A stretch of 19,111 bases of DNA from Dysgonamonadaceae bacterium (GCA_031256775.1 JAIRPX010000154.1:1-19111), one strand, 5' to 3'; shown: positions 1-16,793, counted from the first letter of the stretch. The notes: generated by a model from the sequence alone, not told the origin. Translations and numbers: made by a program.

Positions 1-541
1 AAGCATAATCGGTTACGGCAATATTCAGTTTTTCCGTAACAATCAATTCTACGGGACGATATATTCCTCCGTAAACTCCGAATAATGTGTGATTTACCGG
101 AATAACGTCGGGACGCGAAGCATTGTCCGCTTTTACTAAAATTTCATTTTCCTGTCCGTATTTCAACAGTTTAGTCATTTCGATTACAAAAGCGGAATAC
201 CCTCCTCTGTGGTTTCCCGCCAGCGTTCCGTTTACATAAACTTCCGCTACCGCCGCCACGCCTTCAAACCGGAGAAATACGCGCTTGTCGGACAAGGATT
301 TATCGGGCGTATATGATTTCTTGTAATAAGCTTCGCCGGCATAAAAGATGTTTTTCTTTACCTGCATATCTTCTGCATTCCAAGTGTGTGGAATTTTAAC
401 AGGCTGCCAAGTTTCGTTCAGTGTCTTAGGCAGATTCTCGGCTTTTTTAAATAACCAGCCGTCGTTAAACGGCCGGTTATCGCGGCTAAAAGCCGAAGTT
501 GCTATAAATGTAACAAGTAATATCAAGAAAAATCTGTTCAT
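1..541 (-). CDS. Glycoside hydrolase family 2 (beta-galactosidase/beta-glucuronidase type), N-terminal ~180 aa only; the gene runs off the window start
   Basis: The minus-strand ORF starts at ATG 541..539, 6 nt downstream of the M60 gene stop, and stays open to position 1. It is absent from the ORF track because it is partial. The translation begins MNRFFLILLVTFIATSAFS (signal peptide), then ...NDGWLFKKAE...WQPVKIPHTWN...VFLRFEGVAAVAEVYVNGTLAGNHRGGYSAFVIEMTKLLKYGQENEILVKADNASRPDVIPV. This matches the GH2 N-terminal sugar-binding domain pattern (W.F..., PHTWN, L.F.GV...A.VYVNG...GGY..F..DIT..L..G.EN.L.V.V.N). Confidence 0.75.
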   Translation of the reverse strand, partial: MNRFFLILLVTFIATSAFSRDNRPFNDGWLFKKAENLPKTLNETWQPVKIPHTWNAEDMQVKKNIFYAGEAYYKKSYTPDKSLSDKRVFLRFEGVAAVAEVYVNGTLAGNHRGGYSAFVIEMTKLLKYGQENEILVKADNASRPDVIPVNHTLFGVYGGIYRPVELIVTEKLNIAVTDYA

Positions 542-547
542 TTCCAA

Positions 548-3500
548 TTAGTTTACAACTATTTTTGACATATATCTTTCCGTACCGCTCTTCACTTCTA
601 TGATGTATGTTCCTTTGAGGTCAATAGTTTGTTTGACAAAGCCAGCATTTATCTTCTGTTCCGATACTTTTGCCCCGGAAACAGTATAAATATTGACTAC
701 TCCATCCGAAAATTTACCGGTCGACTTTACCGTAAAAGGCTGTCCTGCTTTTCCCGGATTGGGATAAATGCTTATTCCCTGTTCGCCGTCCGGAAACTTC
801 AGGCCGGTTGTTGTTTTTGCAGCAATATTGATATCCAAATGGTTTGTTACCTTTACGGTCAGGCTATATTTCTCCGGTACTACAGCCGCATCACTTAAAA
901 TCGGGATTACTGTGTCGCCGTCGACAGTTACGGTCAATTCGTTCGCATCGGGTGCTAATGTGAAGTCAATCGTATAATCGCTGTCTTCGTCTTCCAAGTG
1001 AACGCCTGCCTGTGAGGTAATTACCTTGTCGTTTGTTGTCACATTCACTTTGAATTTCAATGGAGGAGGCACGGGCAACTGTTCTCCGGACGACTTGATG
1101 CCGGCATTAAACTCAGCTACCTGTATGGTATTTCCGCTTGACTTGTCCCAATCTTCAATATCCACGCGGATATAACGGTACGACACTTCCGGAAATTCAA
1201 TGACAATTTCATTGTCGTTCTTCGCATAATCGATTACATAATGTTCATAAACCGGCGTGAATACCGTGTTATCGCCCGATCCGTAAACGGATATCTGCCT
1301 TGCCCTGATCCATGCGGAGGTATTGCCTGCATTGCGATGCAAATAACTTACGTAATTGAACATTTGTTCGCCTTGCATGTCAATCGTGAACGAAGGTATG
1401 TAACCAGTCGGCCCGGTTACATTTCCTACTGTTTTCCCCGGCTTAATAAATGAGAATGCAGAGGTTGTATTCCCGTCAATGATGTTCACCGGATTATCGC
1501 CGCCTACGGTAGCATCCGGCACGCCTTCAATGGAAGTGGTAATTGTCCAGTTTGTTCTGTCAAGCGGATTAGCCGTTGATACTTCCGGACTTGAAGAAGT
1601 AATGCCGCGCAAGGCTAAGGGCATCCATGCAGGACGGGCTTGTCCCGTAACCAAAGCAAGCTCTTCGGCCGTGCGGTTGATGTCAGCCAGATCAAGAATC
1701 TCGCCTTTTGTCTTTGCATCAGCCATTTTTGCCCGCAGCTTTGCTTTCACTTCGGCATCCGTTACACGTATTCCCCAGATATTAAAGAACTCGGTCAAAT
1801 CGTAACCGGATACCTGCGAGGCTTTCCAAATCAGATAAGAGCGCCGTTCTTCAGCTCCGCCGCCGGTAACTTTTTCTTCACGCACTACACGGTGCAGGTT
1901 TTTGTAGAAATCGTCGCTGAAAATTAAGAATAATTGTTCCCAAACCATGAAACGCAACTCGTCGCGGTTGAAACCGGTAATGCTTTGCAGCAGTTCGGAA
2001 TCCATGTCATATATCCGCTTTGAAAACGGGAGCTTCAGGTAGGTGTTTTGCGCCCCTTCCCACCGTTCGGCGGAAGTACGGTTATAGCCTGCGCCCTGAA
2101 TATTCCGTTCTGTCACATACGAATAAATATTAACGGTCGATTCGGTTGCCAGGTTAATCATATACGCAGGTTGCTGGTGCTGGTGTCCCAGCTCGTGACC
2201 CAGCATCCATGAGTTGTTGCTTGCAGTTCCCAGCTTTGTCAGGTAACGGGCGCGGCTGCCGTGGGGATAACCGGTATAACCGGCCGAACTGGCATGGGGG
2301 TTTTCGCTGGTATTTTCCGTCAGAAGGAATCTCACTTCGCCGGTTTTCAGGCGGTGATGCAAGGGATTCGGGTCGCCGTTGTCCATACCGCTTATTTCGT
2401 CTTCCTTAGCGAGCAGGGTATGTATGGACTCCATCCATTCGTCCTTATTTTCGTCGATGGAGAATTGCAGGGCAGCCTCGCGCGTAGCCGCCGCCACAAT
2501 ATAATCGGACTGGTAGAGGACGTCGGGCGTTTGATAGTTGTTCATCATGCTTGCAAACTCAGCATGTGGAGTAACTCCGTATATATAGCGCGGCGCGCGC
2601 ACATGTTCGCTGCCGTCTGTAAAAGTAATTCTTGCCCGTCCTTTCGGATCGGCATTTCCGTCATTGACAAAACTCAGCCAGATGAGGCCGCCCAAATGAT
2701 TGGTAACTGTATTCACCCCGGCTGTCAGCGTGGTTGATGTGCCGGTATTCCGTCCGTCCACATTGAATCCCAGCGTTCCTACGGTAAGAACCGGCATCAC
2801 ATTCTGATCTGCCGCGGCAAGGATTTCGACGTTTACTTCCACTTTTTTCCCGGCTTCCACATAGAAGCCTGTGGGTTGCCTGTCGTATTTTTTATGTCCC
2901 TGACACAAGCGCATCCGTTCTTTTTCAGCGCTGTTAATCTGATTGATTTCGATTGCCGAAGGATAAGGCGTAGTAATATTAACTTGTTCCTTCGTTGCCG
3001 AGATGGAAAGATTCATGTCTGCGGTAACGTTTGCGATGCGTATCTTGTCGCCTTCTATTGTTGCGCCGCCGGTTACAACCGGATTTTCGTAATCGGTTTT
3101 CAATCTGAAGATAGCTGTAAACTCGCTGCCGTTGTCTATTCGGGCAAAATAGGGTGTAACATTTTCGATGCCTTCACCCGTACTTACGATGACGCTATGT
3201 TTAACCATTCCGGGAGGTAAATCGGTCTTTCCCAGTCCAAATTCGGCGATTTGCATGGTGCTGCCGCTTCCGGAGCCTGTTCCCGGATAATCAGGATGCC
3301 GGCTGCTGTAAATATCGCTCCACATTACAAGCCTAATTCTGACATACCGGCCGGTAGATTGCGGTACGTCTATTTTATATGTATTCGGATCGGTAACTTC
3401 GGGGGTACTTGTAGTATATCCGGCTATATTCGGAATCCATACGATATCGGTATTAATTTTAGTGAAGTTTGTACCATCGTTGCTGATTTCAATATCAATA

Positions 3501-3853
3501 CCATATACACGCAGATATTTGTAGCTATTACCACCGCGGTGACGCCATTTGATATAATCAAACGTTTGCGCCGATTGCATATCCACGGTAAATGAAGGTA
3601 TGAAATCAGAAGGTTGTTTGGGTACGGCGCCGTAATTCTTACCCGGTTTTACCAGCGAAAGGAATGTCGCGGCATTGTCGTCAAACATGTGTTCCGGCAA
3701 TCCTGTCGTGCCGTCGACTACATAGCCGTAGTTTGTTGCAGTTTGCGTAGTTACCGCCCAATTCGTACGGTCAATGTCTGTTTCGGTTGCTGTCTGCGCG
3801 GTCATTGCTATTGTTAATAACAACGACGAAAAAAATAAGGTTAATCGTTTCAT
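548..3853 (-). CDS. Secreted M60-like (enhancin-type) zinc metallopeptidase, predicted mucin-type glycoprotease, with two discoidin (F5/8 type C)-like modules and a T9SS C-terminal sorting domain
   Basis: The 1101-aa ORF starts with ATG and carries an SPI-type signal peptide (MKRLTLFFSSLLLTIAMTAQ) with no lipobox Cys. Residues ~27-209 form a discoidin-like module (RTNW...GLPEHMFDD...YIKWRHR...YLRVYGIDIEISNDGTNF...RYVRIRL...STMQIAEFGLGK) followed by a GTGSGSGS linker. The M60 catalytic core contains the gluzincin motif HELGH at residues 553-557 with a downstream Glu (HELGHQHQQPAYMINLATE). A second discoidin-like module spans residues ~765-916. The last ~75 aa (ISIYPNPGKAGQPFTVKSTGKFSDGVVNIYTVSGAKVSEQKINAGFVKQTIDLKGTYIIEVKSGTERYMSKIVVN) match the Por/T9SS CTD pattern. 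Confidence 0.8.
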   Translation of the reverse strand: MKRLTLFFSSLLLTIAMTAQTATETDIDRTNWAVTTQTATNYGYVVDGTTGLPEHMFDDNAATFLSLVKPGKNYGAVPKQPSDFIPSFTVDMQSAQTFDYIKWRHRGGNSYKYLRVYGIDIEISNDGTNFTKINTDIVWIPNIAGYTTSTPEVTDPNTYKIDVPQSTGRYVRIRLVMWSDIYSSRHPDYPGTGSGSGSTMQIAEFGLGKTDLPPGMVKHSVIVSTGEGIENVTPYFARIDNGSEFTAIFRLKTDYENPVVTGGATIEGDKIRIANVTADMNLSISATKEQVNITTPYPSAIEINQINSAEKERMRLCQGHKKYDRQPTGFYVEAGKKVEVNVEILAAADQNVMPVLTVGTLGFNVDGRNTGTSTTLTAGVNTVTNHLGGLIWLSFVNDGNADPKGRARITFTDGSEHVRAPRYIYGVTPHAEFASMMNNYQTPDVLYQSDYIVAAATREAALQFSIDENKDEWMESIHTLLAKEDEISGMDNGDPNPLHHRLKTGEVRFLLTENTSENPHASSAGYTGYPHGSRARYLTKLGTASNNSWMLGHELGHQHQQPAYMINLATESTVNIYSYVTERNIQGAGYNRTSAERWEGAQNTYLKLPFSKRIYDMDSELLQSITGFNRDELRFMVWEQLFLIFSDDFYKNLHRVVREEKVTGGGAEERRSYLIWKASQVSGYDLTEFFNIWGIRVTDAEVKAKLRAKMADAKTKGEILDLADINRTAEELALVTGQARPAWMPLALRGITSSSPEVSTANPLDRTNWTITTSIEGVPDATVGGDNPVNIIDGNTTSAFSFIKPGKTVGNVTGPTGYIPSFTIDMQGEQMFNYVSYLHRNAGNTSAWIRARQISVYGSGDNTVFTPVYEHYVIDYAKNDNEIVIEFPEVSYRYIRVDIEDWDKSSGNTIQVAEFNAGIKSSGEQLPVPPPLKFKVNVTTNDKVITSQAGVHLEDEDSDYTIDFTLAPDANELTVTVDGDTVIPILSDAAVVPEKYSLTVKVTNHLDINIAAKTTTGLKFPDGEQGISIYPNPGKAGQPFTVKSTGKFSDGVVNIYTVSGAKVSEQKINAGFVKQTIDLKGTYIIEVKSGTERYMSKIVVN
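551..778 (-). other. Coding segment for the T9SS (Por secretion) C-terminal sorting domain of the M60-like peptidase
   Basis: The C-terminal ~76 residues contain the YPNP motif, an IYTVSGAKV motif (cf. IYDLSGRKV-type), a GTYIIEV motif (cf. GVYFVKV-type) and a basic C-terminal tail. This is the characteristic beta-sandwich CTD of T9SS cargo. Confidence 0.65.
2183..2197 (-). other. HELGH zinc-binding motif codons of the M60-like catalytic domain
   Basis: The reverse complement of 2183..2197 is CAC GAG CTG GGA CAC, which encodes H-E-L-G-H. A Glu lies 14 residues downstream of the second His (LATE), the gluzincin third-ligand position. Confidence 0.7.
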
Positions 3854-3928: not shown

Positions 3929-5245
3929 CTATTCAATAACTATTTTTCCTAATCCGAATTCGGCTATTTGCATTGTATTGCCGCTCAAGGCGCCACTTCC
4001 GGGATAGTTGGGATGCTGATACTTGTCGGGAGCATAGTTCCTGCTCTGTACAACCAAATTCACCTTGACATAACGGTAGGACGATTTGGTTATCGGAATT
4101 ACATAGGGCGCATCTTCTACGGAAGTGACAGACCCGACATACGAAACTTTTTGCGGAATCCAAACGATATCGGCATTAGACCCGGCAGGCTCGGCAGGAG
4201 GTATTACGGTAAAATTAGTTCCGTCGTTGCTGCCTTCCACGATGACGCCATATACCCGCAGGTAATTGTAGGTATTAGATCCTACGCTTCCATTCGCGTT
4301 GCTGTAAGTTCCATTGCGGTGACTCCACTTGATGTATTCAAACTCCTGCGCTGTTTTCATATCAACGATAAACGAGGGAGGGGTGGATTCTGCCGGAGGA
4401 GCTACTCCGTTGATAGAGCCGCCCGGTTTCACCAGTGACAGGTAGGAACCGGCTTGTTCGTCAAACATGTGTTCGGGCAATCCTGTTACGGGAGCGGCCT
4501 GTGTACCGCCGTCCCACATATAGCCGTAATCGTTGTGGGTTTGCGTGGTTACCGTCCAGCCGGAGCGGTCTATGTCCACATTTCTTATTACCAGATCGAG
4601 CACAGTAACGGTAACGTCCCTTGAAAGGTTGCTGCCGTCGGCGGTTCTAATTGTAATCGTTGTGGAACCTACGTTTACGGGACTTACAATACCGGTTGCA
4701 GTAACAGTTGCAATCGATGCATCGTTGGAGGTATAAGTGACAGTTTTATCCCATGTATCCGCGGGCGTCAGACTTACACAGGCGCCAAGGTCGAATGTAT
4801 TTCCTCCGATTTTCAGTTCAAAGTTGCTGCCGGCAGCCGTTACGTTAATGGCTGTGGCTTTTACCATGTGGTCGATAATATTCACTATGAATCTTGTACT
4901 AACTCCCGATCCGTCGGTAGCGCCGACAATTAGCGTGTCGGTACCGAAAGTCTTCGGCTTGAGCAGTCCCGCTTCGGTTACTTCCATCAAGTCGGGACGC
5001 ATGTTGGAGAATGTTACCTTTGGGTTTTTTGCATTTTTCGGCAATATCTCGACATTCAGCTGTAATTCCGTGTTATCTTTCAGAGAAATCTGCATGGAGG
5101 GCTTTCCCGCGCTCACATAGACCGCTTCTTTAATGCCGATTGCGGTAACTTTGCCATCGTTTTCCGGTTCAAATCCCTGAGGTTCGCAGCCGGGCATCAT
5201 CACAGTAATAATTACCAGAAGTGATAAATATATAATCTTTTTCAT
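3929..5245 (-). CDS. Cell-surface lipoprotein with two Big_2 (bacterial Ig-like) domains and a C-terminal discoidin-like (F5/8 type C / DUF5000-like) module; SusE/F-position surface glycan-binding protein candidate
   Basis: The 438-aa ORF starts with ATG and has a lipoprotein-type signal (MKKIIYLSLLVIITVMMPGC) followed by an acidic stretch (CEPQGFEPENDGK). Two Ig-like repeats follow (VTAIGIKEAVYVS... and ATAINVTAAGS...). The C-terminal module RSGWTVTTQTHNDYGYMWDGG...GLPEHMFDEQAGSYLSLVKPGG...YIKWSHRNG...YLRVYGVIVEGSNDGTNFTVI...RYVKVNLVVQS...NTMQIAEFGLGK is about 50-55% identical to the N-terminal module of the adjacent peptidase. The gene lies immediately downstream of susD. Confidence 0.75.
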   Translation of the reverse strand: MKKIIYLSLLVIITVMMPGCEPQGFEPENDGKVTAIGIKEAVYVSAGKPSMQISLKDNTELQLNVEILPKNAKNPKVTFSNMRPDLMEVTEAGLLKPKTFGTDTLIVGATDGSGVSTRFIVNIIDHMVKATAINVTAAGSNFELKIGGNTFDLGACVSLTPADTWDKTVTYTSNDASIATVTATGIVSPVNVGSTTITIRTADGSNLSRDVTVTVLDLVIRNVDIDRSGWTVTTQTHNDYGYMWDGGTQAAPVTGLPEHMFDEQAGSYLSLVKPGGSINGVAPPAESTPPSFIVDMKTAQEFEYIKWSHRNGTYSNANGSVGSNTYNYLRVYGVIVEGSNDGTNFTVIPPAEPAGSNADIVWIPQKVSYVGSVTSVEDAPYVIPITKSSYRYVKVNLVVQSRNYAPDKYQHPNYPGSGALSGNTMQIAEFGLGKIVIE

Positions 5246-5270: not shown

Positions 5271-7271
5271 TTAACGTTTTATATCCTGCCATCCGGGGCT
5301 TTGCGTCAGGTTTTTATTCAATTCGAGTTCCTGAAGGGGAATCGGATTGTAATAATATCTGTCGTCCCATTTCACGACGCCATTGCTTACATTCGGGCTT
5401 TTCGGATAGCCGACGATGAAGCCTTCGCTATCTACGAATACATCTGAATTGAGCGTAGCTTTCGGCGCATTTTTCGCCTTGCTTGTATTTGTGCCGTCGT
5501 ACAGTTTTTGTTTTTCTGCCGTAAATTTCATGCCTCTTATGGGCTTTTCAATAAACCTTCCGGCTTTCCAGCGTACCAAATCTTCGCGGCGAAGGCCTTC
5601 CATTGCCATTTCTATGCGGCGTTCGCGGCGTATTTCGCGAAGAATGGGACTCGGAACGTATCCCGCATATTGCCGGTAAAGATTATCCAAGTGAGTATCG
5701 GCAGGAATGTTCTGCAAAGTCAGCTTGCTGTTGGGATATTTGGAAAAATCAAATCCTGCGCGTTGACGCAAGACATTGACGGTCTTGTCCAAATCCTCAT
5801 TTGTAATGGTTCCCAGTTCCGCTTTGGCTTCGGCATACATCAACAAGGCTTCCCCATAACGGAAAATCAAGGCTGTCTGCGAACCACTGGTAGTAGATCC
5901 GTTGTCTATCTGCTCGTTTGTCCAGTGCTTGATAAACATATAGCCGGTAACGCAAGGGCCGGCTGTCGGCGTTTGATTGGCAGTCGGACAGTTGTATGTA
6001 ATTTCCGGATACTTAAGCCCTTGCAGCGCCTGATTGATTGCGCCCCCGTTATCGTCCCTGTTAAAGACAGTGACATATTCGCCCGGCTTCACTACGGTTT
6101 GCCGCAGGCGCGGGTCGCGGTTGTCAAGCTCTCGCCAGTCGTCGCCGTCATAGCCTTTGAAAAGGGGGCTTGAGGCAGCCGGCAGGCCATCAATACACAA
6201 GTATTCGTCTATCAAGTCTTTGGTGGCTCCCTTACAATAGCGTCCGCTTGCATTTCCGCGGTTCATATTGAAGTATCGCGAGGTTCCGTGCCCCAGCTTG
6301 GAGCCGTCATATACCCGTGCGAGGATGGCTTCCTTGTGGTCACCACCCGTCATGCCGTTCAGCTTGAAGAGATGCCAGTACGGGTCGTTTCCTACTTCGG
6401 CGCTCGGTACATTATATAACTGATACTTGTTTGTCGCCATAATCGCTTCGCAGGCTGTTGCACATTCTTCAAGGAACCTGTTGGCCGTGTTTTGCAAGCC
6501 CAATTCGGTATGATACTTTCGGAAAGTTCCTTCAAACAGGCAGAAACGCGCTTTCAGGAAGTTTGCCATGTCGCGGTTGATGCGTCCTGTTGGTCCGCCT
6601 GTGTTGTTCATATACTGCACGGCGTAGTCGAGGCATTTCATCACGCTATCCACAAGTTGCGTTCTTGGCGTACGCGGGGAATACAATTCGGGAGAATTGG
6701 TATTCAAATCTTTTTCCAGCCAAGGCGCTTCTCCGAAGGCGACTATCTTCCAGTAATAATCCCAAGCCTTAAAGAAATAAGCCTCGGCGGCGTATTTGTT
6801 CAGGATGTCGGGGCTGCTCACCGAGCCTTCCGCTTCGCGGTAATGGCTCAGGAAATAGTTGATTGTACGCAGGTTACCCCACCGCCAGCCGGTATTGTTG
6901 CCATCGTCGAGCGAAGTTACCGCGCTGGCCGGCACTTGCCATGTACCTTGCATGCGGTTAACAATATCGCCCGAAGTATTGGAAAATCCAATGGCGTTAT
7001 CTGTGAAAATGTCGCCGTATATGATATAACTTCCGCGCGTAATGTAGAACGGTGGAGCATAACTGTAAGCATTGCCTGTCTGATGCCCCATGCAATATAC
7101 ATTGTATAATTGATTAAGGTACAAAGGCAAGTCGCCTTCATTTTTTAGAAAAACACCTTCGGCAAGCGTATTATAAGGATCTTGCTGCATAAAATCGTCG
7201 TTACACGAGATCAGGGTAAATCCTGCGCATATACAAACGATTGTAATATATTTTTTTATTATTTTTTTCAT
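5271..7271 (-). CDS. susD: SusD/RagB-family nutrient-binding outer membrane lipoprotein
   Basis: The 666-aa ORF starts with ATG 20 bp downstream of the SusC-like gene. Its lipoprotein signal has the lipobox and an acidic export signal (GFTLISCNDDFMQQDP). It is aromatic-rich and sits in the canonical SusC-SusD pair position. Confidence 0.85.
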   Translation of the reverse strand: MKKIIKKYITIVCICAGFTLISCNDDFMQQDPYNTLAEGVFLKNEGDLPLYLNQLYNVYCMGHQTGNAYSYAPPFYITRGSYIIYGDIFTDNAIGFSNTSGDIVNRMQGTWQVPASAVTSLDDGNNTGWRWGNLRTINYFLSHYREAEGSVSSPDILNKYAAEAYFFKAWDYYWKIVAFGEAPWLEKDLNTNSPELYSPRTPRTQLVDSVMKCLDYAVQYMNNTGGPTGRINRDMANFLKARFCLFEGTFRKYHTELGLQNTANRFLEECATACEAIMATNKYQLYNVPSAEVGNDPYWHLFKLNGMTGGDHKEAILARVYDGSKLGHGTSRYFNMNRGNASGRYCKGATKDLIDEYLCIDGLPAASSPLFKGYDGDDWRELDNRDPRLRQTVVKPGEYVTVFNRDDNGGAINQALQGLKYPEITYNCPTANQTPTAGPCVTGYMFIKHWTNEQIDNGSTTSGSQTALIFRYGEALLMYAEAKAELGTITNEDLDKTVNVLRQRAGFDFSKYPNSKLTLQNIPADTHLDNLYRQYAGYVPSPILREIRRERRIEMAMEGLRREDLVRWKAGRFIEKPIRGMKFTAEKQKLYDGTNTSKAKNAPKATLNSDVFVDSEGFIVGYPKSPNVSNGVVKWDDRYYYNPIPLQELELNKNLTQSPGWQDIKR

Positions 7272-7291: not shown

Positions 7292-10200
7292 TTAAAATGT
7301 AATCTGAGCACCAACGGCAATTGTTCTCTTTTGTGGATAGGCGTCCGAAATTTGATCGGGGTCAAAAATAGACGGGATTTCCGTAATTTCAAACAAGTTG
7401 TAACCCGACAGGGTAAAGCGCAGTTTTTCAACATGCAGTCTTTTTATCAGAGAAGCAGGCACAGTATAACCCAATACAGCCTGTTTCATACGCAGATAAG
7501 CTCCGTTGACCAGCCATCCTGTCTGTACGGCAGGTCCTCCGGCGGTAGAGCTATAACGGGGAAACTTCGCGTCGATCTGGTCAGGCTTCCACGAACGTTC
7601 GTACATCCACCGGCTGCCGGCGTTGTTTGTTCCGCCGCCCCAATAAGTGGTGCTGCCGATCCACAGGTCGCGCTTGGCGACGCCCTGGAACAACATGCTG
7701 AGGTCGAAACCTTTCCACGAAGCGCCCAGCGTAAGGCCAAACTTGTAACGCGGCGTATTGTTTCCTATGATGCGCCGGTCACCCGGATCGTCGGCCGTAT
7801 TGGAGCCGGAGTTGATAATTCCGTCGCCGTTCAGGTCTTTCCGCCACGCATCGCCGGGCCAGACATTGCCACCCTGATAAGGACCGTAGAATTTATAGCT
7901 GTTGCCATCGACTATAAGATCTTCCATTTGCAGAATGCCTCCGGTTTCGTATCCCCAGATTTCGCCAACGTTCATACCTTCATAGTAAAGATAATCTCCC
8001 AGCGTTTTTATGGGGTTGGAAGGATAACTCAGCACTTTGGCCATAGCATCCGACAAAACGAGGCCTGCATTGTACTGCAATCCGTTGGCGAGCTTGTCTT
8101 TCCATTCCAGGCTGAGTTCCCATCCTTTTGAGCGAAGCGCCCCGCTATTTTCACGCGGAGCCGAAACGCCCATCAAATTGGGATATGCAACGCTTCCTTC
8201 CACCAGGATATCGGTGGTTTTGCGTTCAAATACGTCTAAAGAAAAGTTCAGGCGGTTTTGAAAGAACCCAGCGTCCAGCCCAATGTTGGTGGTTGCCGCT
8301 TTTTGCCAGGTCAAGGTAGGCGACACAAGGGACGGCGCGTTTACCGTATTGCTCCAGCTTCCGTCAATCCAGTAATTGGAAGCCGATGAGCTCATTGTCG
8401 CCTGATAGGGATAATAAGAATCGGGCTGGCTACCCAATTTACCATACGATCCCCTTATTTTAAGATTTGAAAGCCAATTTTTCGAAAAATCCATAAAACC
8501 TTCTTCCGAGATTCTCCATCCGACAGAGAAAGAGGGGAAGAAAAAGTATCGTCCGTTAGGTGTAAAACGGCTGCTACCGTCGTAGCGACCATTGACTTCA
8601 AATAAATATTTCCCTGCGAAATTATAATTGATCCGGCCGAAAGCTGCTCTTCCGGTGCGTTTTTGCGCCGAAGTTTCTATTGTATTTAAAGTGGGATCTT
8701 CTGTTGCGCTTGGATTTAAAATATTGGGTGAAAGTAAATTACGTAGATTAAGCGCCGACTGATCGTATTCTACGTATTCCTGATTATACCCGACAATAGC
8801 CGAAAGCGTATGTTTTTCCTTGAATGTTTTGTTGAAATCGGCATACACATTGATCTGGTAATTGTCGGTAACGTCTTTTTCAAATCTTCCCCTGTTTTCC
8901 TTGTATTCCTGTTGCTCGCTTACGGGCGTCCATGTATAGGTGAGATAGTAATGCGAAGGATCGACGCGCCTCAATGTACGTCCTTGCGGCGAATAGGAAA
9001 GATCTGCCTTGAGCTTCAGGATTTTCGGGATAACGATAAATTCCGGCGACACGGCCAAAACCGTAGTCCACCGCTTGGTTACCGTCCGGTTGCCGTAATT
9101 CAGCCATGCAAGATAATTATCCGTCCACTGCTCGCCGCTCGGATCGGTCTGCAAAGTCTTTATGGGCATATTGATATTCTTGTCGGCGTCCTGTTTCAAT
9201 ATCGACCAGATAGTACCCTTATAACTCGGCACGTAAGGTTCTTCGTAGCTGTAACGGTTATAATTGACTTTTGTTTCCACATTAAACCAATCGGTTACTT
9301 TTGCATTAAAGCGGGTAGCGATGTTGTAGCGGTTGTATTGGTCTTCGCCGATTTTATACATGCCGTCTTGCGTCATGTAACCCAGCGAAAGATGATAGGC
9401 GATTTTATCCGATCCTCCCGACAGGCTCACGTTATGCTTTTGTGTAGGCGCGTAGTCGCGAACCACTTCTTTGTAAGGATTCATATTTCCAACCCATACG
9501 ATTGAGTTTCCGTTCATTATATACCGGTTTTCCGGATTGGTTGGATCTGCCATGTATTTTTCGATCGCTTCCATCTTTCTCTTGTCCAAATCGCTTGGCT
9601 GATTGTTGACAGAGGTCCACTGGGTATTTTGCATCACGAAGCGTTGAATTTCATAAGCGTTCATAATGTCGGGGAGGGCGGAGGGCTTGTCATACGAAAG
9701 ATCATAATTGTAGCTGATTTTTCCCTTTTGGTTGAATTTACCCGCTTTGGTTGTAATCAACACGACTCCCCATGTTGCTTTTGTTCCGTAAATGGCCGAA
9801 GCTGAAGCATCCTTAATTACACTCATGCTTTCAACATCGTTCGGATTCATCTGGTTCAGCAATGTGGAGGTCATTTCCACTCCATCCACTAAAATTAACG
9901 GTTCGCCGTTTTTAAGTTCCCATCTGGAGTCTGTCGTATTGTAGTCGATAGAGGTAGTTCCACGAATATTAAAACTGGGTACCGTGTTGGGCTTCCCGTC
10001 GCTCATGGAAATATTCAGGTTAGGAACAACGCCTTGTAAGGCTTGGCCGATATTGGCCACGGGGCGGTTTTCAAATGTTTCGGATCCAACAGAGGAAACG
10101 GCTCCGGTCAGGTTTACTTTTTTTTGTGTCTGGAAGCCAACGACCACCACATCGTCCAATAATTTTGAATCTTCCGCAAGTTTTACGTTAATTGTTGTTT

Positions 10201-10495
10201 GCGTTCCCGCTTTGTACTCTTGCGTAGCATATCCGATATACGAAAATACCAGAACAGTGTTTGGACCGTCGGCAGTGATACTGTATTTACCGTCAATATC
10301 GCTTACCGTTCCTTTTGTTGTGTTTTTAAGAGTAACACTGACTCCTACGAGAGGTTCGCTGCTCATGTCTGTTACTGTTCCTGTAATTGTATTCTGCGCC
10401 CTGCAAAGGCAACAGACACAAAAACCGAAAAAGAGTAACAGAAAGATTTTGCATTTGAATCTTTTTCTAAAATTTTCGATAGTACAATGTTTCAT
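7292..10495 (-). CDS. susC: SusC/RagA-family TonB-dependent outer membrane transporter
   Basis: The ORF-track start at 10501 is a TTG. The first in-frame ATG is at 10495 (MKHCTIENFRKRFKCKIFLLLFFGFCVCCLCRAQ signal), so the protein is ~1067 aa. A carboxypeptidase-regulatory-like N-domain (NTITGTVTDMSSEPLVGVSVTLKNTTKGTVSDIDGKYSI) is followed by a TonB-box region (DDVVVVGFQTQ), a plug and a long beta-barrel ending in the aromatic C-terminus AQITF. There is no STN/N-terminal signalling extension. Confidence 0.9.
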   Translation of the reverse strand: MKHCTIENFRKRFKCKIFLLLFFGFCVCCLCRAQNTITGTVTDMSSEPLVGVSVTLKNTTKGTVSDIDGKYSITADGPNTVLVFSYIGYATQEYKAGTQTTINVKLAEDSKLLDDVVVVGFQTQKKVNLTGAVSSVGSETFENRPVANIGQALQGVVPNLNISMSDGKPNTVPSFNIRGTTSIDYNTTDSRWELKNGEPLILVDGVEMTSTLLNQMNPNDVESMSVIKDASASAIYGTKATWGVVLITTKAGKFNQKGKISYNYDLSYDKPSALPDIMNAYEIQRFVMQNTQWTSVNNQPSDLDKRKMEAIEKYMADPTNPENRYIMNGNSIVWVGNMNPYKEVVRDYAPTQKHNVSLSGGSDKIAYHLSLGYMTQDGMYKIGEDQYNRYNIATRFNAKVTDWFNVETKVNYNRYSYEEPYVPSYKGTIWSILKQDADKNINMPIKTLQTDPSGEQWTDNYLAWLNYGNRTVTKRWTTVLAVSPEFIVIPKILKLKADLSYSPQGRTLRRVDPSHYYLTYTWTPVSEQQEYKENRGRFEKDVTDNYQINVYADFNKTFKEKHTLSAIVGYNQEYVEYDQSALNLRNLLSPNILNPSATEDPTLNTIETSAQKRTGRAAFGRINYNFAGKYLFEVNGRYDGSSRFTPNGRYFFFPSFSVGWRISEEGFMDFSKNWLSNLKIRGSYGKLGSQPDSYYPYQATMSSSASNYWIDGSWSNTVNAPSLVSPTLTWQKAATTNIGLDAGFFQNRLNFSLDVFERKTTDILVEGSVAYPNLMGVSAPRENSGALRSKGWELSLEWKDKLANGLQYNAGLVLSDAMAKVLSYPSNPIKTLGDYLYYEGMNVGEIWGYETGGILQMEDLIVDGNSYKFYGPYQGGNVWPGDAWRKDLNGDGIINSGSNTADDPGDRRIIGNNTPRYKFGLTLGASWKGFDLSMLFQGVAKRDLWIGSTTYWGGGTNNAGSRWMYERSWKPDQIDAKFPRYSSTAGGPAVQTGWLVNGAYLRMKQAVLGYTVPASLIKRLHVEKLRFTLSGYNLFEITEIPSIFDPDQISDAYPQKRTIAVGAQITF

Positions 10496-10506
10496 AAACA
10501 ATAGAT

Positions 10507-11649
10507 TTAAAATTTATAATATGATTGATAAATTTCACTTCCTGCCAGCAAGAATGCGCCCACGCCGTAAGCAGCAGTCATATTTGCCGTCACTTTTTTA
10601 GGATCTGCACCGACAGGCTGCACCCATCCGAGTTTCCCGTTTTTATCTATGGCAGAAACCAGAGCTGTCCACGATTTTTTCACGACAGGTGTATATTTTT
10701 TTTTATCCAGCAAGTCCTTGTTGACACCGTAAGCCAATGCGTAGGTAATAAGCGCCGTAGCGCTGGTTTCAGGTGCCGGGTAGCTCGCAGGATCCAGCAG
10801 GCTTGCATGCCAAAAACCATCTTTATCCTGCAATGCCGCCAATTGCGAAACAAACTCTTTGAACAGATTTTCGTAAAAAGGCCGGTACTCTGAGTTTTCA
10901 GGAAGCAGTTTCAAAATATTTACTAATCCTGCGGCCACCCAGCCGTTGCCTCTTCCCCAAAAGACTTTTTCCCCATTCGCTTCTTTTTTGTTAAAATAGC
11001 TGCTATCTCTAAAGAACAGTTTCTTTTTTCGGTCATATAAAAAATTATATGTTCTTTTAAATTCTCTGTCCATAAATTGAAGATATTCGTCGTTTCCTTC
11101 GATTTTTGTCAGATGTGCATAAACAGGGGGAGCCATGAACAAAGCGTCGCACCATGTCCATGATTGTTTGTTGGATATGCTCATTGCGGAATCGGGGGGA
11201 TTACTGATGATCCAGTCTGCTCTTTCCTTTGTGGAACAGAGCATTTTATTCTCTTTGTAGAGATTGAACATATTCAGGTAAAATTGTCCGATACAGAGTT
11301 CGTCGGCATGATAGAGTCCGTATATAGGGTATTTAAGAAAATTGGCGGGAATATTCCAGTTACTTGTTAAACCGATGTTTTCCAGCCACTGAAAACAGGA
11401 TGAATCGTCGGCTATTTTTGCCCATTCAAACATTCCCAAGTATAAAACGGCATTTGTCCATGAATCTATTCCATAATCATGCAGATTATCGGTTGTAGAG
11501 TACTTGAAGTTGTCGATTTGCCAGTCGGCGACTTTTTTCATTGAAGATTTTATATCCGGTAACTTTAATGCCGACCTGCTCCAACAGGGAAAAACAGATA
11601 TTATTCCCCAGAAAAGCAAAAAAATGACAATGTTCTTGTGTCTTTTCAT
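10507..11649 (-). CDS. Glyco_hydro_88-superfamily (GH88/GH105) unsaturated glucuronyl / rhamnogalacturonyl hydrolase-like enzyme with a signal peptide; first gene of the locus
   Basis: The 380-aa ORF starts with ATG and has an N-terminal signal (MKRHKNIVIFLLFWGIISVFPCWS). It shows (alpha/alpha)6-type motifs shared by the UGL/YteR families (DSWTNAVLYLGMFEW, YHADELCIGQFYL, WTWCDALFMAPPVYAHL, GRGNGWVAAGL). Its stop codon lies 11 nt before the SusC ATG. Confidence 0.65.
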   Translation of the reverse strand: MKRHKNIVIFLLFWGIISVFPCWSRSALKLPDIKSSMKKVADWQIDNFKYSTTDNLHDYGIDSWTNAVLYLGMFEWAKIADDSSCFQWLENIGLTSNWNIPANFLKYPIYGLYHADELCIGQFYLNMFNLYKENKMLCSTKERADWIISNPPDSAMSISNKQSWTWCDALFMAPPVYAHLTKIEGNDEYLQFMDREFKRTYNFLYDRKKKLFFRDSSYFNKKEANGEKVFWGRGNGWVAAGLVNILKLLPENSEYRPFYENLFKEFVSQLAALQDKDGFWHASLLDPASYPAPETSATALITYALAYGVNKDLLDKKKYTPVVKKSWTALVSAIDKNGKLGWVQPVGADPKKVTANMTAAYGVGAFLLAGSEIYQSYYKF

Positions 11650-11687
11650 ATAGTATATTTTGTTTTTTTTAAGTTTTTAAGGTGCAA

Positions 11688-11695
11688 CAAAAATA
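11688..11695 (-). promoter_or_regulatory. Candidate Bacteroides-type -7 promoter element (TAnnTTTG) for the GH88/105-susC-susD-lipoprotein-M60-GH2 operon
   Basis: The reverse complement of caaaaata (11688-11695) is TATTTTTG, matching TAnnTTTG. It lies ~39 nt upstream of the ATG at 11649. No well-spaced -33 TTTG was found. Confidence 0.35.
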
Positions 11696-11700
11696 TGTAT

Positions 11701-11767
11701 TTTGGTTTTCAAGTTAATATTTTTTGCATTGCTATTATTGCCTTATTTTTTGCTGTAATTGCCAAAT
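11701..11767. repeat. Copy 1 of a ~67-bp near-perfect direct repeat in the locus upstream region
   Basis: Copy 1 reads tttggttttcaagttaatattttttgcattgctattattgccttattttttgctgtaattgccaaat. It differs from the copy at 11821-11887 at only ~2-3 positions. Each copy contains two internal ATTTTTTGC(N)ATTGC sub-motifs. Confidence 0.85.
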
Positions 11768-11820
11768 AGCTAATATTCAGTATGTTATATAGTGTATGAA
11801 TTGCAAAAAAAAGTATAAGG

Positions 11821-11887
11821 TTCGGTTTTCAAGTTAATATTTTTTGCATTGCTATTATTGCTTTATTTTTTGCTGTAATTGCCAAAT
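11821..11887. repeat. Copy 2 of the ~67-bp direct repeat, 120-bp period, separated from copy 1 by a 53-bp spacer
   Basis: Copy 2 reads ttcggttttcaagttaatattttttgcattgctattattgctttattttttgctgtaattgccaaat. The flanks diverge immediately outside the repeat. Confidence 0.85.
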
Positions 11888-13976: not shown

Positions 13977-13995
13977 AATTTATAGTATAAAGTAA

Positions 13996-14502
13996 TTAAA
14001 TAATAAAATCAATCGGATAAACCAATTGGCGTGTACCGGACACTTTTATTTTTTGTCCCTTTTCGAAATGAATTTCTTCAGGACACTCTAAAGTAATAGT
14101 TACCGGCCTGCCTTCCAGAGTGACAAATACTTCTCCTACTTTTCGCTTATCGTCCCAAAAATATACTTCAGCTTCCATCTCTTTTATTTCATGAGTATAT
14201 TTCATATTTTGTTGCAATTTGTCATAGACCCATTTATACAAGAAGTATAATACAACGACAAAAATGATACCCACAAAGACTCCCATTGTGGTCGAAAAAA
14301 AAGTAACTTCGTGCATTAGAGTTAATTCAAGCGAAAAACCAATAGTAAAATGCAGCAGACCTTTGAAAGAAAGAATATCGCCCCACAGAAATCCACTATC
14401 CATATCCGAATCTATATCGAAATTGCCGAAAAACAGAGATCCTATAGCGTTGATAATAAACAAAATCCCTGATACAATCAAGACTATCTCATACCATGTC
14501 AT
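13996..14502 (-). CDS. NfeD-like short membrane protein (YuaF/YqiJ-type partner of flotillin)
   Basis: The 168-aa ORF starts with ATG and has N-terminal TM helices. Its C-terminus is OB-fold-like (GEVFVTLEGRPVTITLECPEEIHFEKGQKIKVSGTRQLV). It lies 19 bp upstream of the flotillin gene, the conserved nfeD-floT arrangement. Confidence 0.7.
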   Translation of the reverse strand: MTWYEIVLIVSGILFIINAIGSLFFGNFDIDSDMDSGFLWGDILSFKGLLHFTIGFSLELTLMHEVTFFSTTMGVFVGIIFVVVLYFLYKWVYDKLQQNMKYTHEIKEMEAEVYFWDDKRKVGEVFVTLEGRPVTITLECPEEIHFEKGQKIKVSGTRQLVYPIDFII

Positions 14503-16016: not shown

Positions 16017-16789
16017 ACAGACAGTTCCCAGTTTTTTATTTTCCCTAAAACCGAATAAGCCGTCATATCCGGTTGGAGTGGAACCAGAGCTGCATATCCT
16101 TGCGATAGTGCCCATTCGTCACTCTGCTCGTTTCCAAGTTCTTCATTAAGAAACGAACCTGTTAACCAATAGACTGTTTGCCCGGAAGGGTCTTTAGCTG
16201 TTTGAAACTCTTTAGCCCAATATCCTTTGGTTTGCGTACAAATTTTCAAACCTTTTACATTCGAAATATCAGGAATGTTTAAATTGATACAGACACCTTC
16301 AGGCAATTCTCCCGCCAGTATTTTTTCGGCTATCAGCTTTCCATATTTTACTGCTTGAGTAAAATCGGCGTCGGGCGAATGGTTGGTAAGAGAAATTCCA
16401 ACAGAAGGTATTTTTAAGATACATCCTTCCAAAGCGGCGCCAACAGTTCCCGAATAAATTACACAGATAGCAGCATTGGAACCGTGGTTAATTCCTGAAA
16501 GAAGCAAATCCGGTTTTCTGTCCAGTATTTCATTAATTCCCAATTTTACGCAATCTACGGGCGTACCCGTGCAGCTATAAACGGTAAGATCTTTTTCTTT
16601 ATGAATCTGATTTAAACGAATCGGATTGGAGGCTGTTATGGCGCTCGACATACCTGAACGTATCCGGTCGGGCGCGATTACCACGATTTCTCCCAGAGAG
16701 CGAACACCTTCAATTAGTGCGTTAATCCCTTTTGCATGAACGCCGTCGTCATTCGTTATAAGAATAAGAGGCTTTTTGTATTTCAACAT
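16013..16789 (-). CDS. surE: 5'/3'-nucleotidase SurE
   Basis: The protein reads MLKYKKPLILITNDDGVHAKGINALIEGV...; the DDG motif and overall pattern are typical of SurE. The start is reassigned to the ATG at 16789, 4 nt after the upstream stop. The longer ORF-track start at 16831 would overlap the upstream gene by 38 nt. The stop TGA overlaps the lpxB ATG in the sequence ATGA. Confidence 0.85.
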   Translation of the reverse strand: MLKYKKPLILITNDDGVHAKGINALIEGVRSLGEIVVIAPDRIRSGMSSAITASNPIRLNQIHKEKDLTVYSCTGTPVDCVKLGINEILDRKPDLLLSGINHGSNAAICVIYSGTVGAALEGCILKIPSVGISLTNHSPDADFTQAVKYGKLIAEKILAGELPEGVCINLNIPDISNVKGLKICTQTKGYWAKEFQTAKDPSGQTVYWLTGSFLNEELGNEQSDEWALSQGYAALVPLQPDMTAYSVLGKIKNWELSV

Positions 16790-16793
16790 AACT

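What the first reader, a model, noticed from the sequence alone, without database searches (positions are those of the whole stretch)
548..3853. M60-like zinc metallopeptidase inside a Sus-like locus carries a T9SS C-terminal sorting domain instead of a lipoprotein anchor
The protein combines an SPI signal peptide, two discoidin-like carbohydrate-binding modules, an HELGH...E gluzincin core and a textbook Por/T9SS CTD (YPNP...IYTVSGAKV...GTYIIEV). The characterised M60-like mucinases in gut Bacteroides PULs are surface lipoproteins with BACON/CBM32 modules. A T9SS-exported M60-like protease encoded within a SusC/SusD operon implies that the glycoprotein substrate is attacked by a secreted or CTD-anchored protease before Sus-mediated import. 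That secretion route is poorly described for Bacteroidales PULs. It also places the organism in a T9SS-positive lineage rather than Bacteroides sensu stricto.
Basis: partly seen in the sequence, partly recalled or inferred. Interest (0 to 1): 0.72.

Follow-up and report, generated by a model that had tools for sequence, protein, structure and literature searches.

The report
T9SS-exported M60 glycopeptidase in a PUL

Summary
ORF 548..3853 (-) encodes 1101 aa with these parts: an SPI-type signal peptide, a CBM32-like domain, M60-like_N, Peptidase_M60 (HELGH553-557, E571), F5/8-type-C, two Ig-like domains, and a type-A T9SS CTD at the extreme C-terminus (TIGR04183 33.4 bits against a cut-off of 23). 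It lies in a tightly packed operon: GH105, SusC, SusD, a lipoprotein with Big_2 and a CBM32-like domain, M60, GH2.

The window is a whole 19.1-kb contig of a Dysgonamonadaceae MAG. NCBI already names the protein "M60 family metallopeptidase". About 64 of 69 homologue clusters end in the same CTD, and none has a convincing lipobox. In 25 of 28 related loci with enough flank the gene sits beside SusC. Recurrent partners are GH29, GH2, GH105, PL8 lyases (several also CTD-tagged) and HTCS regulators. The hosts are termite-gut Bacteroidales and marine Marinilabiliales.

The closest characterised system is the B. thetaiotaomicron BT4240-50 PUL, where the M60 enzyme is a lipoprotein. PULs whose enzymes use T9SS are already known in Flavobacterium and Chitinophaga.

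Likely mechanism (inferred): T9SS export, glycoprotein or proteoglycan cleavage outside the cell, then SusCD import of glycopeptides. The substrate is unknown, and mammalian mucin is unlikely. I rate it a new member of a known kind, of modest interest.

The parts
548..3853 (-). Whole ORF (1101 aa plus stop): modular M60 family metallopeptidase with a T9SS CTD. Identical to NCBI MDR0506654.1.
3797..3853 (-). Signal peptide, residues 1-19 (MKRLTLFFSSLLLTIAMTA|Q). SPI type with no lipobox Cys. The mature N-terminus would be Gln.
   Evidence: Sequence inspection. pLDDT <50 over residues 1-21.
3218..3787 (-). N-terminal CBM32-like (F5/8-type-C / NedA-like) module, residues 23-212. It is 50% identical to the C-terminal domain of the neighbouring lipoprotein. 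Most homologues lack it.
2984..3217 (-). Residues 213-290: linker or probable Ig-like spacer. Low model confidence.
   Evidence: pLDDT <50 over 214-289
2651..2935 (-). M60-like_N accessory beta domain, residues 307-401.
   Evidence: PF17291, E 1.5e-7
1772..2602 (-). Peptidase_M60 catalytic domain, residues 418-694. HELGH is at nt 2183-2197 and E571 at nt 2141-2143.
1097..1570 (-). Second F5/8-type-C (CBM32) domain, residues 762-919.
   Evidence: PF00754; CpGH89CBM32-5, TMt 0.86
809..1066 (-). Two Ig-like beta-sandwich spacer domains, residues 930-1015. A flexible linker follows at 1016-1026 (TGLKFPDGEQG), the likely region of CTD removal.
   Evidence: strands 933-1013; pLDDT <50 at 1017-1024. 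The cleavage position is an inference.
551..769 (-). Type-A T9SS C-terminal sorting domain, residues 1029-1101 (IYPNP...GTYIIEV...KIVVN).
3929..5245 (-). Lipoprotein (MPGC|EPQ...) of 438 aa with Big_2 and a C-terminal CBM32-like domain paralogous to the M60 N-terminal module. Candidate surface glycan-binding protein.
5271..7271 (-). SusD-family lipoprotein (signal peptide ...FTLISCNDD, lipid-modified Cys followed by NDD).
7292..10501 (-). SusC/RagA-family TonB-dependent transporter.
   Evidence: TIGR04056, 878 bits
10507..11649 (-). GH105-type unsaturated uronyl hydrolase (PF07470), first gene of the operon.
   Evidence: (best PDB match 4CE7, E 5e-68)
2..541 (-). 5' part of a GH2 gene with an SPI signal peptide, cut by the contig end. 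It starts 6 nt after the M60 stop codon.
   Evidence: The same gene order occurs in L001 and L009.

Best explanation
The gene encodes the outward-facing, endo-acting enzyme of a glycoprotein- or proteoglycan-directed polysaccharide utilisation locus in a T9SS-bearing Bacteroidales bacterium. The contig is from a Dysgonamonadaceae MAG, and its closest relatives are termite-gut bacteria.

Shown by sequence:
- an SPI signal peptide;
- an intact gluzincin M60 catalytic core with the O-glycopeptidase fold;
- two CBM32-type modules;
- a type-A T9SS sorting domain at the very C-terminus;
- operon linkage to GH105, SusC, SusD, a lipoprotein sharing the same CBM subtype, and GH2.

Inferred pathway:
1. 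The protein crosses the inner membrane by Sec.
2. Its CTD is recognised by the T9SS translocon. It is exported, and the CTD is removed in the flexible linker around residues 1016-1028.
3. The enzyme is then either released or attached to the surface through anionic LPS.
4. Outside the cell the CBM32 modules dock it on the glycan coat of the substrate, and the M60 domain cuts the peptide backbone next to glycosylated residues.
5. The glycopeptides are caught by the lipoprotein (same CBM subtype) and SusD, and SusC imports them.
6. They are then trimmed in the periplasm by GH105, GH2 and, in relatives, GH29.

The substrate is not identified. The partner enzymes point to a fucose-, galactose- and uronic-acid-bearing glycoconjugate rather than classical mammalian mucin.
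For: Domain HMMs are above curated cut-offs. The catalytic residues are invariant in 69 homologues.

The AF2 model has pLDDT >90 over most of 290-1101. Its top Foldseek PDB hits are ZmpB, ZmpA, ZmpC, AM0627, BT4244 and IMPa, all O-glycopeptidases, and the CBM matches CpGH89CBM32-5 with TMt 0.86.

The CTD profile of the family matches two 75-residue PDB chains. One, 8GLJ_D, is named by its depositors as a Por secretion system C-terminal sorting domain protein. The E-values are 1e-6 (8GLK_D) and 2e-5 (8GLJ_D).

The CTD is retained in about 64 of 69 homologue clusters, with P1031, G1060, G1081 and Y1083 nearly invariant and no convincing lipobox. It is also present in most complete clade ORFs from 38 distinct loci.

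Neighbouring PL8 lyases and a small CBM-only protein in related loci also carry the CTD.

Synteny is conserved. Of 28 distinct loci with at least 12 kb held, 25 have SusC, 19 the CBM lipoprotein, 12 GH29, 9 HTCS, 8 GH2, 7 GH105 and 5 PL8.

One homologue (P0029) is a single ORF fusing M60, CBM, GH105 and CTD.

The lipoprotein's CBM is 50% identical to the enzyme's N-terminal CBM, E 4e-58. This parallels BT4244 and BT4245, whose CBM32 domains share specificity, and matches the published model of glycopeptide import by SusCD (PMC11992087).

Gaps between the six genes are 5-75 nt.

A complete T9SS is documented in a termite-protist Bacteroidales ectosymbiont (PMC12483993).
Against: No T9SS machinery gene can be examined, because the window is the whole contig. 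No experiment exists for any member of this clade.

The Pfam Por_Secre_tail score sits exactly on the cut-off (27.0). A single-sequence match of the CTD to a solved CTD is weak (E 0.34).

The catalytic domain is distant from every characterised O-glycopeptidase. The best PDB relative, 4FCA, has unknown function, and BT4244 scores only E 3e-4 by single sequence. Glycan-dependent cleavage is therefore extrapolated from fold and family.

Release versus surface anchoring cannot be predicted. Partner enzymes vary between loci (GH105 in 7 of 28, PL8 in 5 of 28), so one common substrate is not established. The M60-GH105 fusion is seen in a single metagenomic contig.
Confidence: 0.7

Rival explanations
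1. It is a classical mucinase of an animal-gut mucin PUL, as in Bacteroides thetaiotaomicron BT4244. It would attack mucin-type GalNAc O-glycoproteins of a mammalian host and differ only in export route.
For: It shares the family, the fold and the CBM32 modules. It also shares the locus logic of M60, CBM32 SGBP, SusCD and GH2.
Against: The closest relatives are termite-gut MAGs and single-cell genomes, Ca. Symbiothrix, and marine Maribellus and Draconibacterium. The locus has GH105, and relatives have PL8 and GH29. I saw none of the mucin-typical GH109, GH101, GH33, GH20 or GH16 genes among the annotated neighbours. Sequence similarity to BT4244 is marginal.
Confidence: 0.1
2. It is mainly a host- or partner-interaction factor, enhancin-like, rather than a nutritional enzyme. 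It would remodel the insect peritrophic matrix or the glycocalyx of a gut protist to allow attachment or penetration.
For: M60 is the enhancin family (Pfam description). Some relatives belong to protist ectosymbionts such as Ca. Symbiothrix. T9SS cargo in a termite ectosymbiont is dominated by putative adhesins (PMC12483993).
Against: The gene is embedded in an operon with SusC/D and glycoside hydrolases in 25 of 28 loci. It often has an HTCS sensor next to it, and it occurs in free-living marine Marinilabiliales. That pattern is typical of nutrient acquisition.
Confidence: 0.1
3. It is a general secreted protease feeding a RagAB-like peptide importer. The CBMs would only tether it to particles, and glycans would not determine cleavage.
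For: SusC/D-type pairs can import peptides: RagAB and BT2263-64 are cited in PMC11992087. The catalytic domain is far from characterised O-glycopeptidases.
Against: The locus contains three glycoside hydrolase families or partners. Two CBM32 modules sit on the enzyme and one on the lipoprotein. One homologue fuses GH105 to the peptidase. All M60 members characterised so far that appear in the structure hits are glycan-dependent (PMC13355702 abstract).
Confidence: 0.07
4. The CTD-like tail is a plain Ig-like domain with no secretion role, or the organism lacks T9SS. The protein would then stay periplasmic.
For: The Pfam score is exactly at threshold. T9SS genes are not observable in the window.
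Against: The TIGR04183 score is 10 bits above its cut-off. The domain is strictly terminal and ends in the usual K-I-V-V-x. It is conserved across more than 60 clusters and is shared with neighbouring PL8 lyases. The family profile hits solved T9SS CTD chains.
Confidence: 0.03

Closest known systems
Bacteroides thetaiotaomicron PUL BT4240-50 with the O-glycopeptidase BT4244-M60L (PMC11992087)
   Same: An M60 catalytic domain carrying a CBM32. An adjacent SGBP lipoprotein whose CBM32 matches that of the enzyme. A SusC/SusD pair. A GH2 in the same locus. The same model: the peptide backbone is cut at the surface and glycopeptides are imported.
   Different: BT4244 is an SPII lipoprotein with a BACON domain. 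The window protein has an SPI signal, no BACON domain and a T9SS type-A CTD. The partner hydrolase is GH105 rather than GH109 with a kinase. Sequence relation is remote (E 3e-4 single sequence, 3e-8 by profile). The habitat is termite-gut type, not human colon.
Bacteroides caccae PUL25 (PL35 + GH88 + GH109 + GH154 + M60-like genes; PMC12269599)
   Same: It combines M60-like peptidase genes with a lyase plus unsaturated-uronyl-hydrolase route. The authors suggest a proteoglycan target. The clade studied here combines M60 with GH105 and, in relatives, PL8.
   Different: The lyase family differs (PL35 against PL8), as does the hydrolase (GH88 against GH105-like). Bacteroides has no T9SS (my own knowledge). 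The B. caccae M60 proteins of that PUL are uncharacterised there.
PULs whose enzymes are T9SS cargo: Chitinophaga pinensis FCWUL (PMC10449523) and Flavobacterium johnsoniae ChiA (cited in PMC5831590)
   Same: A SusC/D locus whose extracellular enzymes carry an SPI signal peptide plus a T9SS CTD instead of a lipid anchor, with CBMs appended.
   Different: Those cargos are glycoside hydrolases (GH18, GH16) acting on chitin and beta-glucan in Chitinophagales and Flavobacteriales. Here the cargo is a metallopeptidase in Bacteroidales and Marinilabiliales.
4FCA / 5EV7, Bacillus anthracis 'conserved domain protein' (M60-like, function unknown)
   Same: It is the closest solved sequence relative of the catalytic region (E 7e-15 single sequence, 2e-33 by profile; Foldseek TMt 0.71).
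   Different: It is a Gram-positive, single-module protein with no CBM32 pair, no CTD, no PUL and no known substrate.

Membership tests
Peptidase family M60 / M60-like (PF13402) | Profile match above the curated threshold | tested here: met
   PF13402 at 119.7 bits against a cut-off of 25.8, covering profile positions 3-275 of 275. M60-like_N at 31.9 bits against 23.
Peptidase family M60 / M60-like (PF13402) | Gluzincin zinc site HEXXH followed by a downstream Glu | tested here: met
   H553-E-L-G-H557 and E571 are present. H553, E554, H557 and E571 are invariant in 69 homologues.
Peptidase family M60 / M60-like (PF13402) | Fold of solved M60 O-glycopeptidases | tested here: met
   Foldseek against PDB: ZmpB 7JFS E 1.8e-24, AM0627 7YX8 TMt 0.73-0.74, BT4244 5KD5 E 4.8e-17. 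The model has pLDDT >90 in this region.
Peptidase family M60 / M60-like (PF13402) | Glycan-dependent peptidase activity | not testable with these tools
   This needs a recombinant enzyme assayed on glycosylated against deglycosylated substrates.
T9SS type-A cargo (TIGR04183 / PF18962 CTD) | CTD profile match above the curated threshold | tested here: met
   TIGR04183 at 33.4 bits against 23. PF18962 at 27.0 against 27, which is borderline.
T9SS type-A cargo (TIGR04183 / PF18962 CTD) | The domain lies at the extreme C-terminus, and the protein has an N-terminal Sec (SPI) signal | tested here: met
   The CTD spans 1029-1101 of 1101 residues. The signal peptide is residues 1-19 with no Cys. The signal peptide was judged by inspection only; no predictor was available.
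T9SS type-A cargo (TIGR04183 / PF18962 CTD) | Homology to CTDs solved as T9SS substrates | tested here: met
   The family profile matches 8GLK_D at E 1e-6 and 8GLJ_D at E 2e-5, end to end. The single sequence gives only E 0.34.
T9SS type-A cargo (TIGR04183 / PF18962 CTD) | T9SS machinery (porK/L/M/N, sov/sprA, porU, porV) encoded in the same genome | not testable with these tools
   The window is the entire 19,111-bp contig, and the rest of the MAG could not be reached. There is indirect support only: CTD-tagged neighbours in related loci, and T9SS in a termite-gut Bacteroidales symbiont (PMC12483993).
T9SS type-A cargo (TIGR04183 / PF18962 CTD) | T9SS-dependent export and CTD cleavage | not testable with these tools
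   This needs proteomics and genetics.
Polysaccharide utilisation locus (Sus-like system) | Adjacent SusC-like TonB-dependent transporter and SusD-like lipoprotein, co-oriented with degradative enzymes | tested here: met
   TIGR04056 at 878 bits and PF07980 at E 1.5e-46. GH105, M60 and GH2 are on the same strand with 5-75 nt gaps. The arrangement is conserved in 25 of 28 related loci.
BT4244-type surface-lipoprotein M60L | SPII lipobox Cys and an N-terminal BACON domain | tested here: not met
   There is no Cys in the first 35 residues and no BACON hit in Pfam. The protein should not be filed in this subgroup.
CBM32 (F5/8 type C) | Profile and fold match, and glycan binding | tested here: inconclusive
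   The profile and fold criteria are met: PF00754 E 8.6e-21, and Foldseek CpGH89CBM32-5 TMt 0.86. Ligand binding and specificity were not tested. The N-terminal module has only moderate model confidence.
GH105 (neighbour gene 10507-11649) | PF07470 match, with closest solved relatives in GH105 rather than GH88 | tested here: met
   PF07470 at E 4.6e-91. The best PDB match is 4CE7, an unsaturated 3S-rhamnoglycuronyl hydrolase, at E 5e-68. YteR/YesR-type GH105 entries are also hit. CAZy assignment itself was not run.

The most novel reading that the evidence does not exclude
The window would represent a conserved, uncharacterised 'T9SS-dependent glycoconjugate PUL'. It is shared by termite-gut Bacteroidales and marine Marinilabiliales. 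All of its outward-acting enzymes (the M60 peptidase, the PL8 lyase and, in one case, an M60-GH105 fusion) are T9SS cargo carrying one mobile CBM32-like module. Its substrate would be a non-mucin, fucose- and uronic-acid-bearing proteoglycan or glycoprotein. Candidates are plant arabinogalactan-protein-like material, protist or algal cell-surface glycoprotein, or insect peritrophic-matrix proteoglycan. That would extend M60 O-glycopeptidases beyond animal mucin biology.
Probability: 0.3. Interest if true: 0.55.

Novelty: new member of a known kind. Interest (0 to 1): 0.3.

Why it matters
M60 O-glycopeptidases are studied almost only as mucinases of human-associated bacteria, where the Bacteroides enzymes are lipoproteins.

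This locus, with about 40 related loci, shows a sizeable sister clade that uses the type IX secretion route instead. The clade is hard-wired into SusC/D operons together with fucosidase, GH2, GH105 and PL8 genes, and it lives in termite guts and marine sediments.

If the substrate were identified, it would tell us which glycoprotein or proteoglycan is a nutrient in lignocellulose-feeding guts. It could also supply new glycoproteomics tools with different glycan specificity.

As a single gene annotation, however, it is what public pipelines already report, and the PUL-plus-T9SS arrangement has published precedents.

Tried and rejected
- **Source contig.** Exact-sequence look-ups to recover the source contig and more flank failed twice. 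The rest of the MAG, and hence the T9SS core genes, could not be examined.
- **Literature.** Searches for 'M60-like' with 'type IX secretion', and for 'peptidase M60' with the CTD phrase, returned nothing. 'M60' with 'T9SS' returned 19 papers. I judged these by title and abstract only, opening one, where the 'M60' hit was a reference-list artefact. 'Dysgonomonas' with 'gldK' returned nothing. McBride & Zhu 2013 is not held under the PMC id I tried. The PDB code 5NOA is not mentioned in any held paper, so I could not use it to argue for an arabinogalactan-protein substrate.
- **Family scan.** I replaced it with a CTD HMM built locally from the homologues.
- **Promoter and terminator scan.** It gave counts no different from shuffles and was not used.
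- **Artefact check.** I considered whether the ORF might be a gene-calling or assembly chimera. I rejected this because four clusters share the full 1,080-1,130 aa architecture at 71-78% identity.
- **Lipoprotein anchoring.** I considered it and rejected it: there is no Cys in the signal region, and only 1 of 69 homologues has even a lipobox-like string.
- I did not run the large representative-protein search or a second homologue search. The existing hits already settle how common the architecture is.

Full report
**1. What is in the sequence**

The minus-strand ORF 548..3853 is the longest in the window (1101 aa, ATG start). Pfam finds:
- Peptidase_M60 (418-694, E 2.3e-34);
- M60-like_N (307-401);
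- F5/8-type-C in two places;
- a NedA-like galactose-binding match in the N-terminal module;
- Por_Secre_tail (1029-1100, 27.0 bits, exactly the gathering score).

NCBIfam gives TIGR04183, the type-A T9SS sorting domain, at 33.4 bits against a cut-off of 23. It covers the last 73 residues.

The zinc motif is HELGH at 553-557 with E571. H553, E554, H557 and E571 are invariant in an alignment of 69 homologues.

The N-terminus (MKRLTLFFSSLLLTIAMTA|QT) has a charged n-region, a hydrophobic core and a small-residue c-region. It has no cysteine, so it is an SPI signal and not a lipoprotein signal. This was judged by inspection.

An AlphaFold2 model built on the alignment has mean pLDDT 83. Most of residues 290-1101 are above 90, and 214-289 are below 50. 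The order of modules is:
1. signal peptide;
2. CBM32-like domain;
3. poorly modelled spacer;
4. M60-like_N;
5. M60 catalytic domain;
6. CBM32;
7. two Ig-like sandwiches;
8. a short disordered linker (1017-1024);
9. a seven-strand CTD.

Foldseek against the PDB returns the solved O-glycopeptidases ZmpB, ZmpA, ZmpC, AM0627, BT4244 and IMPa, and the B. anthracis protein 4FCA. For the CBM it returns CpGH89CBM32-5 with TMt 0.86.

**2. Surroundings**

Six genes lie on the same strand with gaps of 5-75 nt:
- a GH105-type unsaturated uronyl hydrolase (10507-11649; PF07470 E 4.6e-91; best PDB relative 4CE7, unsaturated 3S-rhamnoglycuronyl hydrolase, E 5e-68);
- SusC (TIGR04056, 878 bits);
- SusD;
- a 438-aa lipoprotein with Big_2;
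- the M60 gene;
- the 5' part of a GH2 gene cut by the contig end.

The lipoprotein's C-terminal domain is 50% identical (E 4e-58) to the N-terminal CBM32-like module of the M60 protein. It is only 29% identical to the M60's second CBM.

Upstream of the operon lies a 750-bp AT-rich spacer. Beyond it are unrelated housekeeping genes: a flotillin-like gene, lpxB, surE and a C26-M19 peptidase fusion. No regulator and no T9SS gene is in the window.

**3. Provenance**

The protein is identical to NCBI MDR0506654.1, 'MAG: M60 family metallopeptidase [Dysgonamonadaceae bacterium]'. The only contig carrying it is 19,111 bp, the same length as the window, so the window is evidently that whole contig.

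Dysgonomonadaceae are Bacteroidales but not Bacteroides.

The nearest relatives (57-78% identity) fall into three groups:
- single-cell genomes named 'Bacteroidia bacterium FACS1894177 / MS502-39';
- MAGs of Dysgonamonadaceae, Ca. Symbiothrix, Tannerellaceae, Prevotellaceae and Paludibacteraceae, with isolate codes such as Rs511, Kf353, Hs463, Zx50 and Ct408;
- cultured marine Marinilabiliales (Maribellus luteus XSD2, Maribellus sp. CM-23, Draconibacterium).

Ca. Symbiothrix and Ca. Ordinivivax are termite-gut protist symbionts. I read the isolate codes as termite species abbreviations. Both statements rest on my own knowledge and are not a tool result.

**4. How common is the architecture**

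Of 69 homologue clusters, about 64 end in a YPNP...K-(I/V/L)-(I/V)-V-x tail. The exceptions are truncated. Only one has a lipobox-like string.

I built a CTD HMM from these tails and ran it on 88 fetched loci. It detects the CTD in nearly all complete M60 ORFs of the clade. It detects none in the ~30%-identical M60 proteins of Pedobacter, Nonomuraea or Streptomyces.

The same HMM finds CTDs on the PL8 lyases that flank the M60 gene in Paludibacteraceae-type loci, and on a 330-aa 'CBM only' protein.

The family profile matches two solved 75-residue chains: 8GLK_D at E 1e-6 and 8GLJ_D at E 2e-5. 8GLJ_D is named 'Por secretion system C-terminal sorting domain-containing protein'. The single window sequence aligns end to end but only at E 0.34.

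So the T9SS tag is the rule for this clade and is under conservation. P1031, G1060, G1081 and Y1083 are nearly invariant.

**5. Conserved locus**

There are 38 distinct loci of the clade. Among the 28 with at least 12 kb of sequence, the counts are:
- SusC, 25;
- the Big_2/CBM lipoprotein, 19;
- GH29 alpha-L-fucosidase, 12;
- an HTCS regulator, 9;
- GH2, 8;
- GH105, 7;
- PL8 lyase, 5.

SusD counts are underestimates, because divergent SusDs miss my phmmer threshold.

One metagenomic homologue (P0029, 1136 aa) is a single ORF containing M60, CBM, GH105 and CTD.

The 'N-terminal' CBM subtype of the window protein is mobile. It sits before the CTD in P0005. It stands alone with a CTD in the 330-aa protein. 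It also sits at the N-terminus of a recurrent ~1050-aa protein without a confident Pfam assignment.

**6. Mechanism**

Shown by sequence: the domain content, the intact active site, the fold, the SPI signal, the terminal type-A CTD and the operon structure.

Inferred:
1. Sec export.
2. Recognition of the CTD by the T9SS, and removal of the CTD in the linker before residue ~1029.
3. Release, or anchoring to anionic LPS.
4. CBM-guided docking on a glycosylated substrate.
5. Cleavage of the peptide backbone next to glycosylated residues.
6. Capture of glycopeptides by the paralogous-CBM lipoprotein and SusD.
7. SusC import.
8. Periplasmic trimming by GH105 and GH2 (and GH29 in relatives).

Steps 4 to 8 copy the experimentally supported model for the B. 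thetaiotaomicron BT4240-50 PUL. There BT4244-M60L and the SGBP BT4245 share CBM32 specificity, and the model has glycopeptides imported by SusCD and deglycosylated by a GH2 and GH109 (PMC11992087).

The GH105/PL8 association recalls B. caccae PUL25 (PL35 + GH88 + M60-like). Its authors suggested a proteoglycan target for that PUL (PMC12269599).

The substrate here is unknown. I rate mammalian mucin as unlikely because of the habitat of the relatives, the partner enzymes, and the remote relation to BT4244 (E 3e-4 single sequence, 3e-8 by profile).

**7. Comparison with what is known, and novelty**

Membership of peptidase family M60 and of the type-A T9SS cargo class is met on every sequence-level criterion I could test. 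The functional criteria (activity, secretion, T9SS genes in the genome) are not testable here.

The protein fails the defining features of the BT4244-type lipoprotein subgroup: it has no lipobox and no BACON domain.

PULs whose extracellular enzymes carry an SPI signal and a T9SS CTD are published for Chitinophaga pinensis (PMC10449523) and Flavobacterium johnsoniae ChiA (cited in PMC5831590). In a rumen Bacteroidales lineage, T9SS CAZymes were described as an alternative to PULs (PMC5831590).

In the searchable library, no paper pairs the term 'M60-like' with 'type IX secretion', nor 'peptidase M60' with the CTD phrase. Judged by title and abstract, none of the 19 papers holding both 'M60' and 'T9SS' has either M60 or a T9SS-exported M60 as its subject.

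My rating is therefore a new member of a known kind. Both building blocks and their combination principle are known, and public annotation already names the protein. The specific peptidase-as-T9SS-cargo PUL clade has not been studied.

**8. Verdict**

The claim of unusualness is too strong, and the mucin frame is probably wrong.

Interest is 0.3. The more interesting possibility is a conserved T9SS-dependent PUL type for a non-mucin proteoglycan or glycoprotein in termite guts and marine sediments. It is compatible with the data but unproven. I give it probability about 0.3 and interest 0.55 if true.

Noticed in passing
window 11686-11767 and 11806-11887: An 82-nt direct repeat (90% identical, start-to-start spacing 120 nt). 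It lies in the AT-rich 750-bp spacer immediately upstream of the first gene of the operon (GH105). It may be a duplicated promoter or operator region.
   Followed up: no
window 3929-4600 (lipoprotein residues ~224-434) vs window 3218-3787 (M60 residues 26-209): The C-terminal domain of the SGBP-like lipoprotein and the N-terminal CBM32-like module of the M60 protein are 50% identical (E 4e-58). Pfam did not recognise this domain in the lipoprotein at all. Most M60 homologues lack the module, and in P0005 it sits just before the CTD, so it behaves as a mobile binding module of this PUL type.
   Followed up: partly
L002 6822-10232 (protein P0029): A single 1136-aa ORF fuses M60-like_N, M60, F5/8-type-C, GH105 and a T9SS CTD. 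That would place an unsaturated uronyl hydrolase outside the cell on the same polypeptide as the peptidase. It is seen on one metagenomic contig only.
   Followed up: partly
L003 12741-17222; L006 13801-18303; L012 12448-21767; L028 14743-18606; L006 12688-13668: Large PL8 lyases (~1290-1590 aa) next to the M60 gene in Paludibacteraceae and Dysgonamonadaceae loci also end in a T9SS CTD. So does a 326-aa protein consisting of the CBM module plus CTD.
   Followed up: partly
L038 1-11724: In a Prevotellaceae MAG contig (Im510_bin108), a single open frame of at least 3908 codons spans the whole 11.7-kb contig and contains an M60 domain. It is a giant multidomain protein, incomplete at both ends.
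   Followed up: no
window 16794-18572 (-): A 592-aa fusion of Peptidase_C26 / class-I glutamine amidotransferase (residues 13-223) with an M19 membrane dipeptidase (244-580).
   Followed up: no
window 14844-16115 (-) and 16013-16831 (-): The longest lpxB ORF overlaps the end of surE by 103 nt. The LpxB profile begins at residue 37, so the true start is probably the internal Met of 'MKYFLIAGE'.
   Followed up: no
window 12402-14502 (-): A flotillin-like SPFH/Band-7 protein (524 aa, long coiled-coil tail) follows a 168-aa membrane protein with no Pfam hit. The layout resembles an NfeD-flotillin pair.
   Followed up: no
L003 6684-9854 and homologues (P0071, P0072; L012, L015): A recurrent ~1050-aa protein sits between the SGBP and the M60 gene in Paludibacteraceae loci and also occurs in Ca. 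Ordinivivax. It has the same N-terminal CBM module. The remaining ~850 residues have only sub-threshold Ig-like Pfam hits and no confident family.
   Followed up: no
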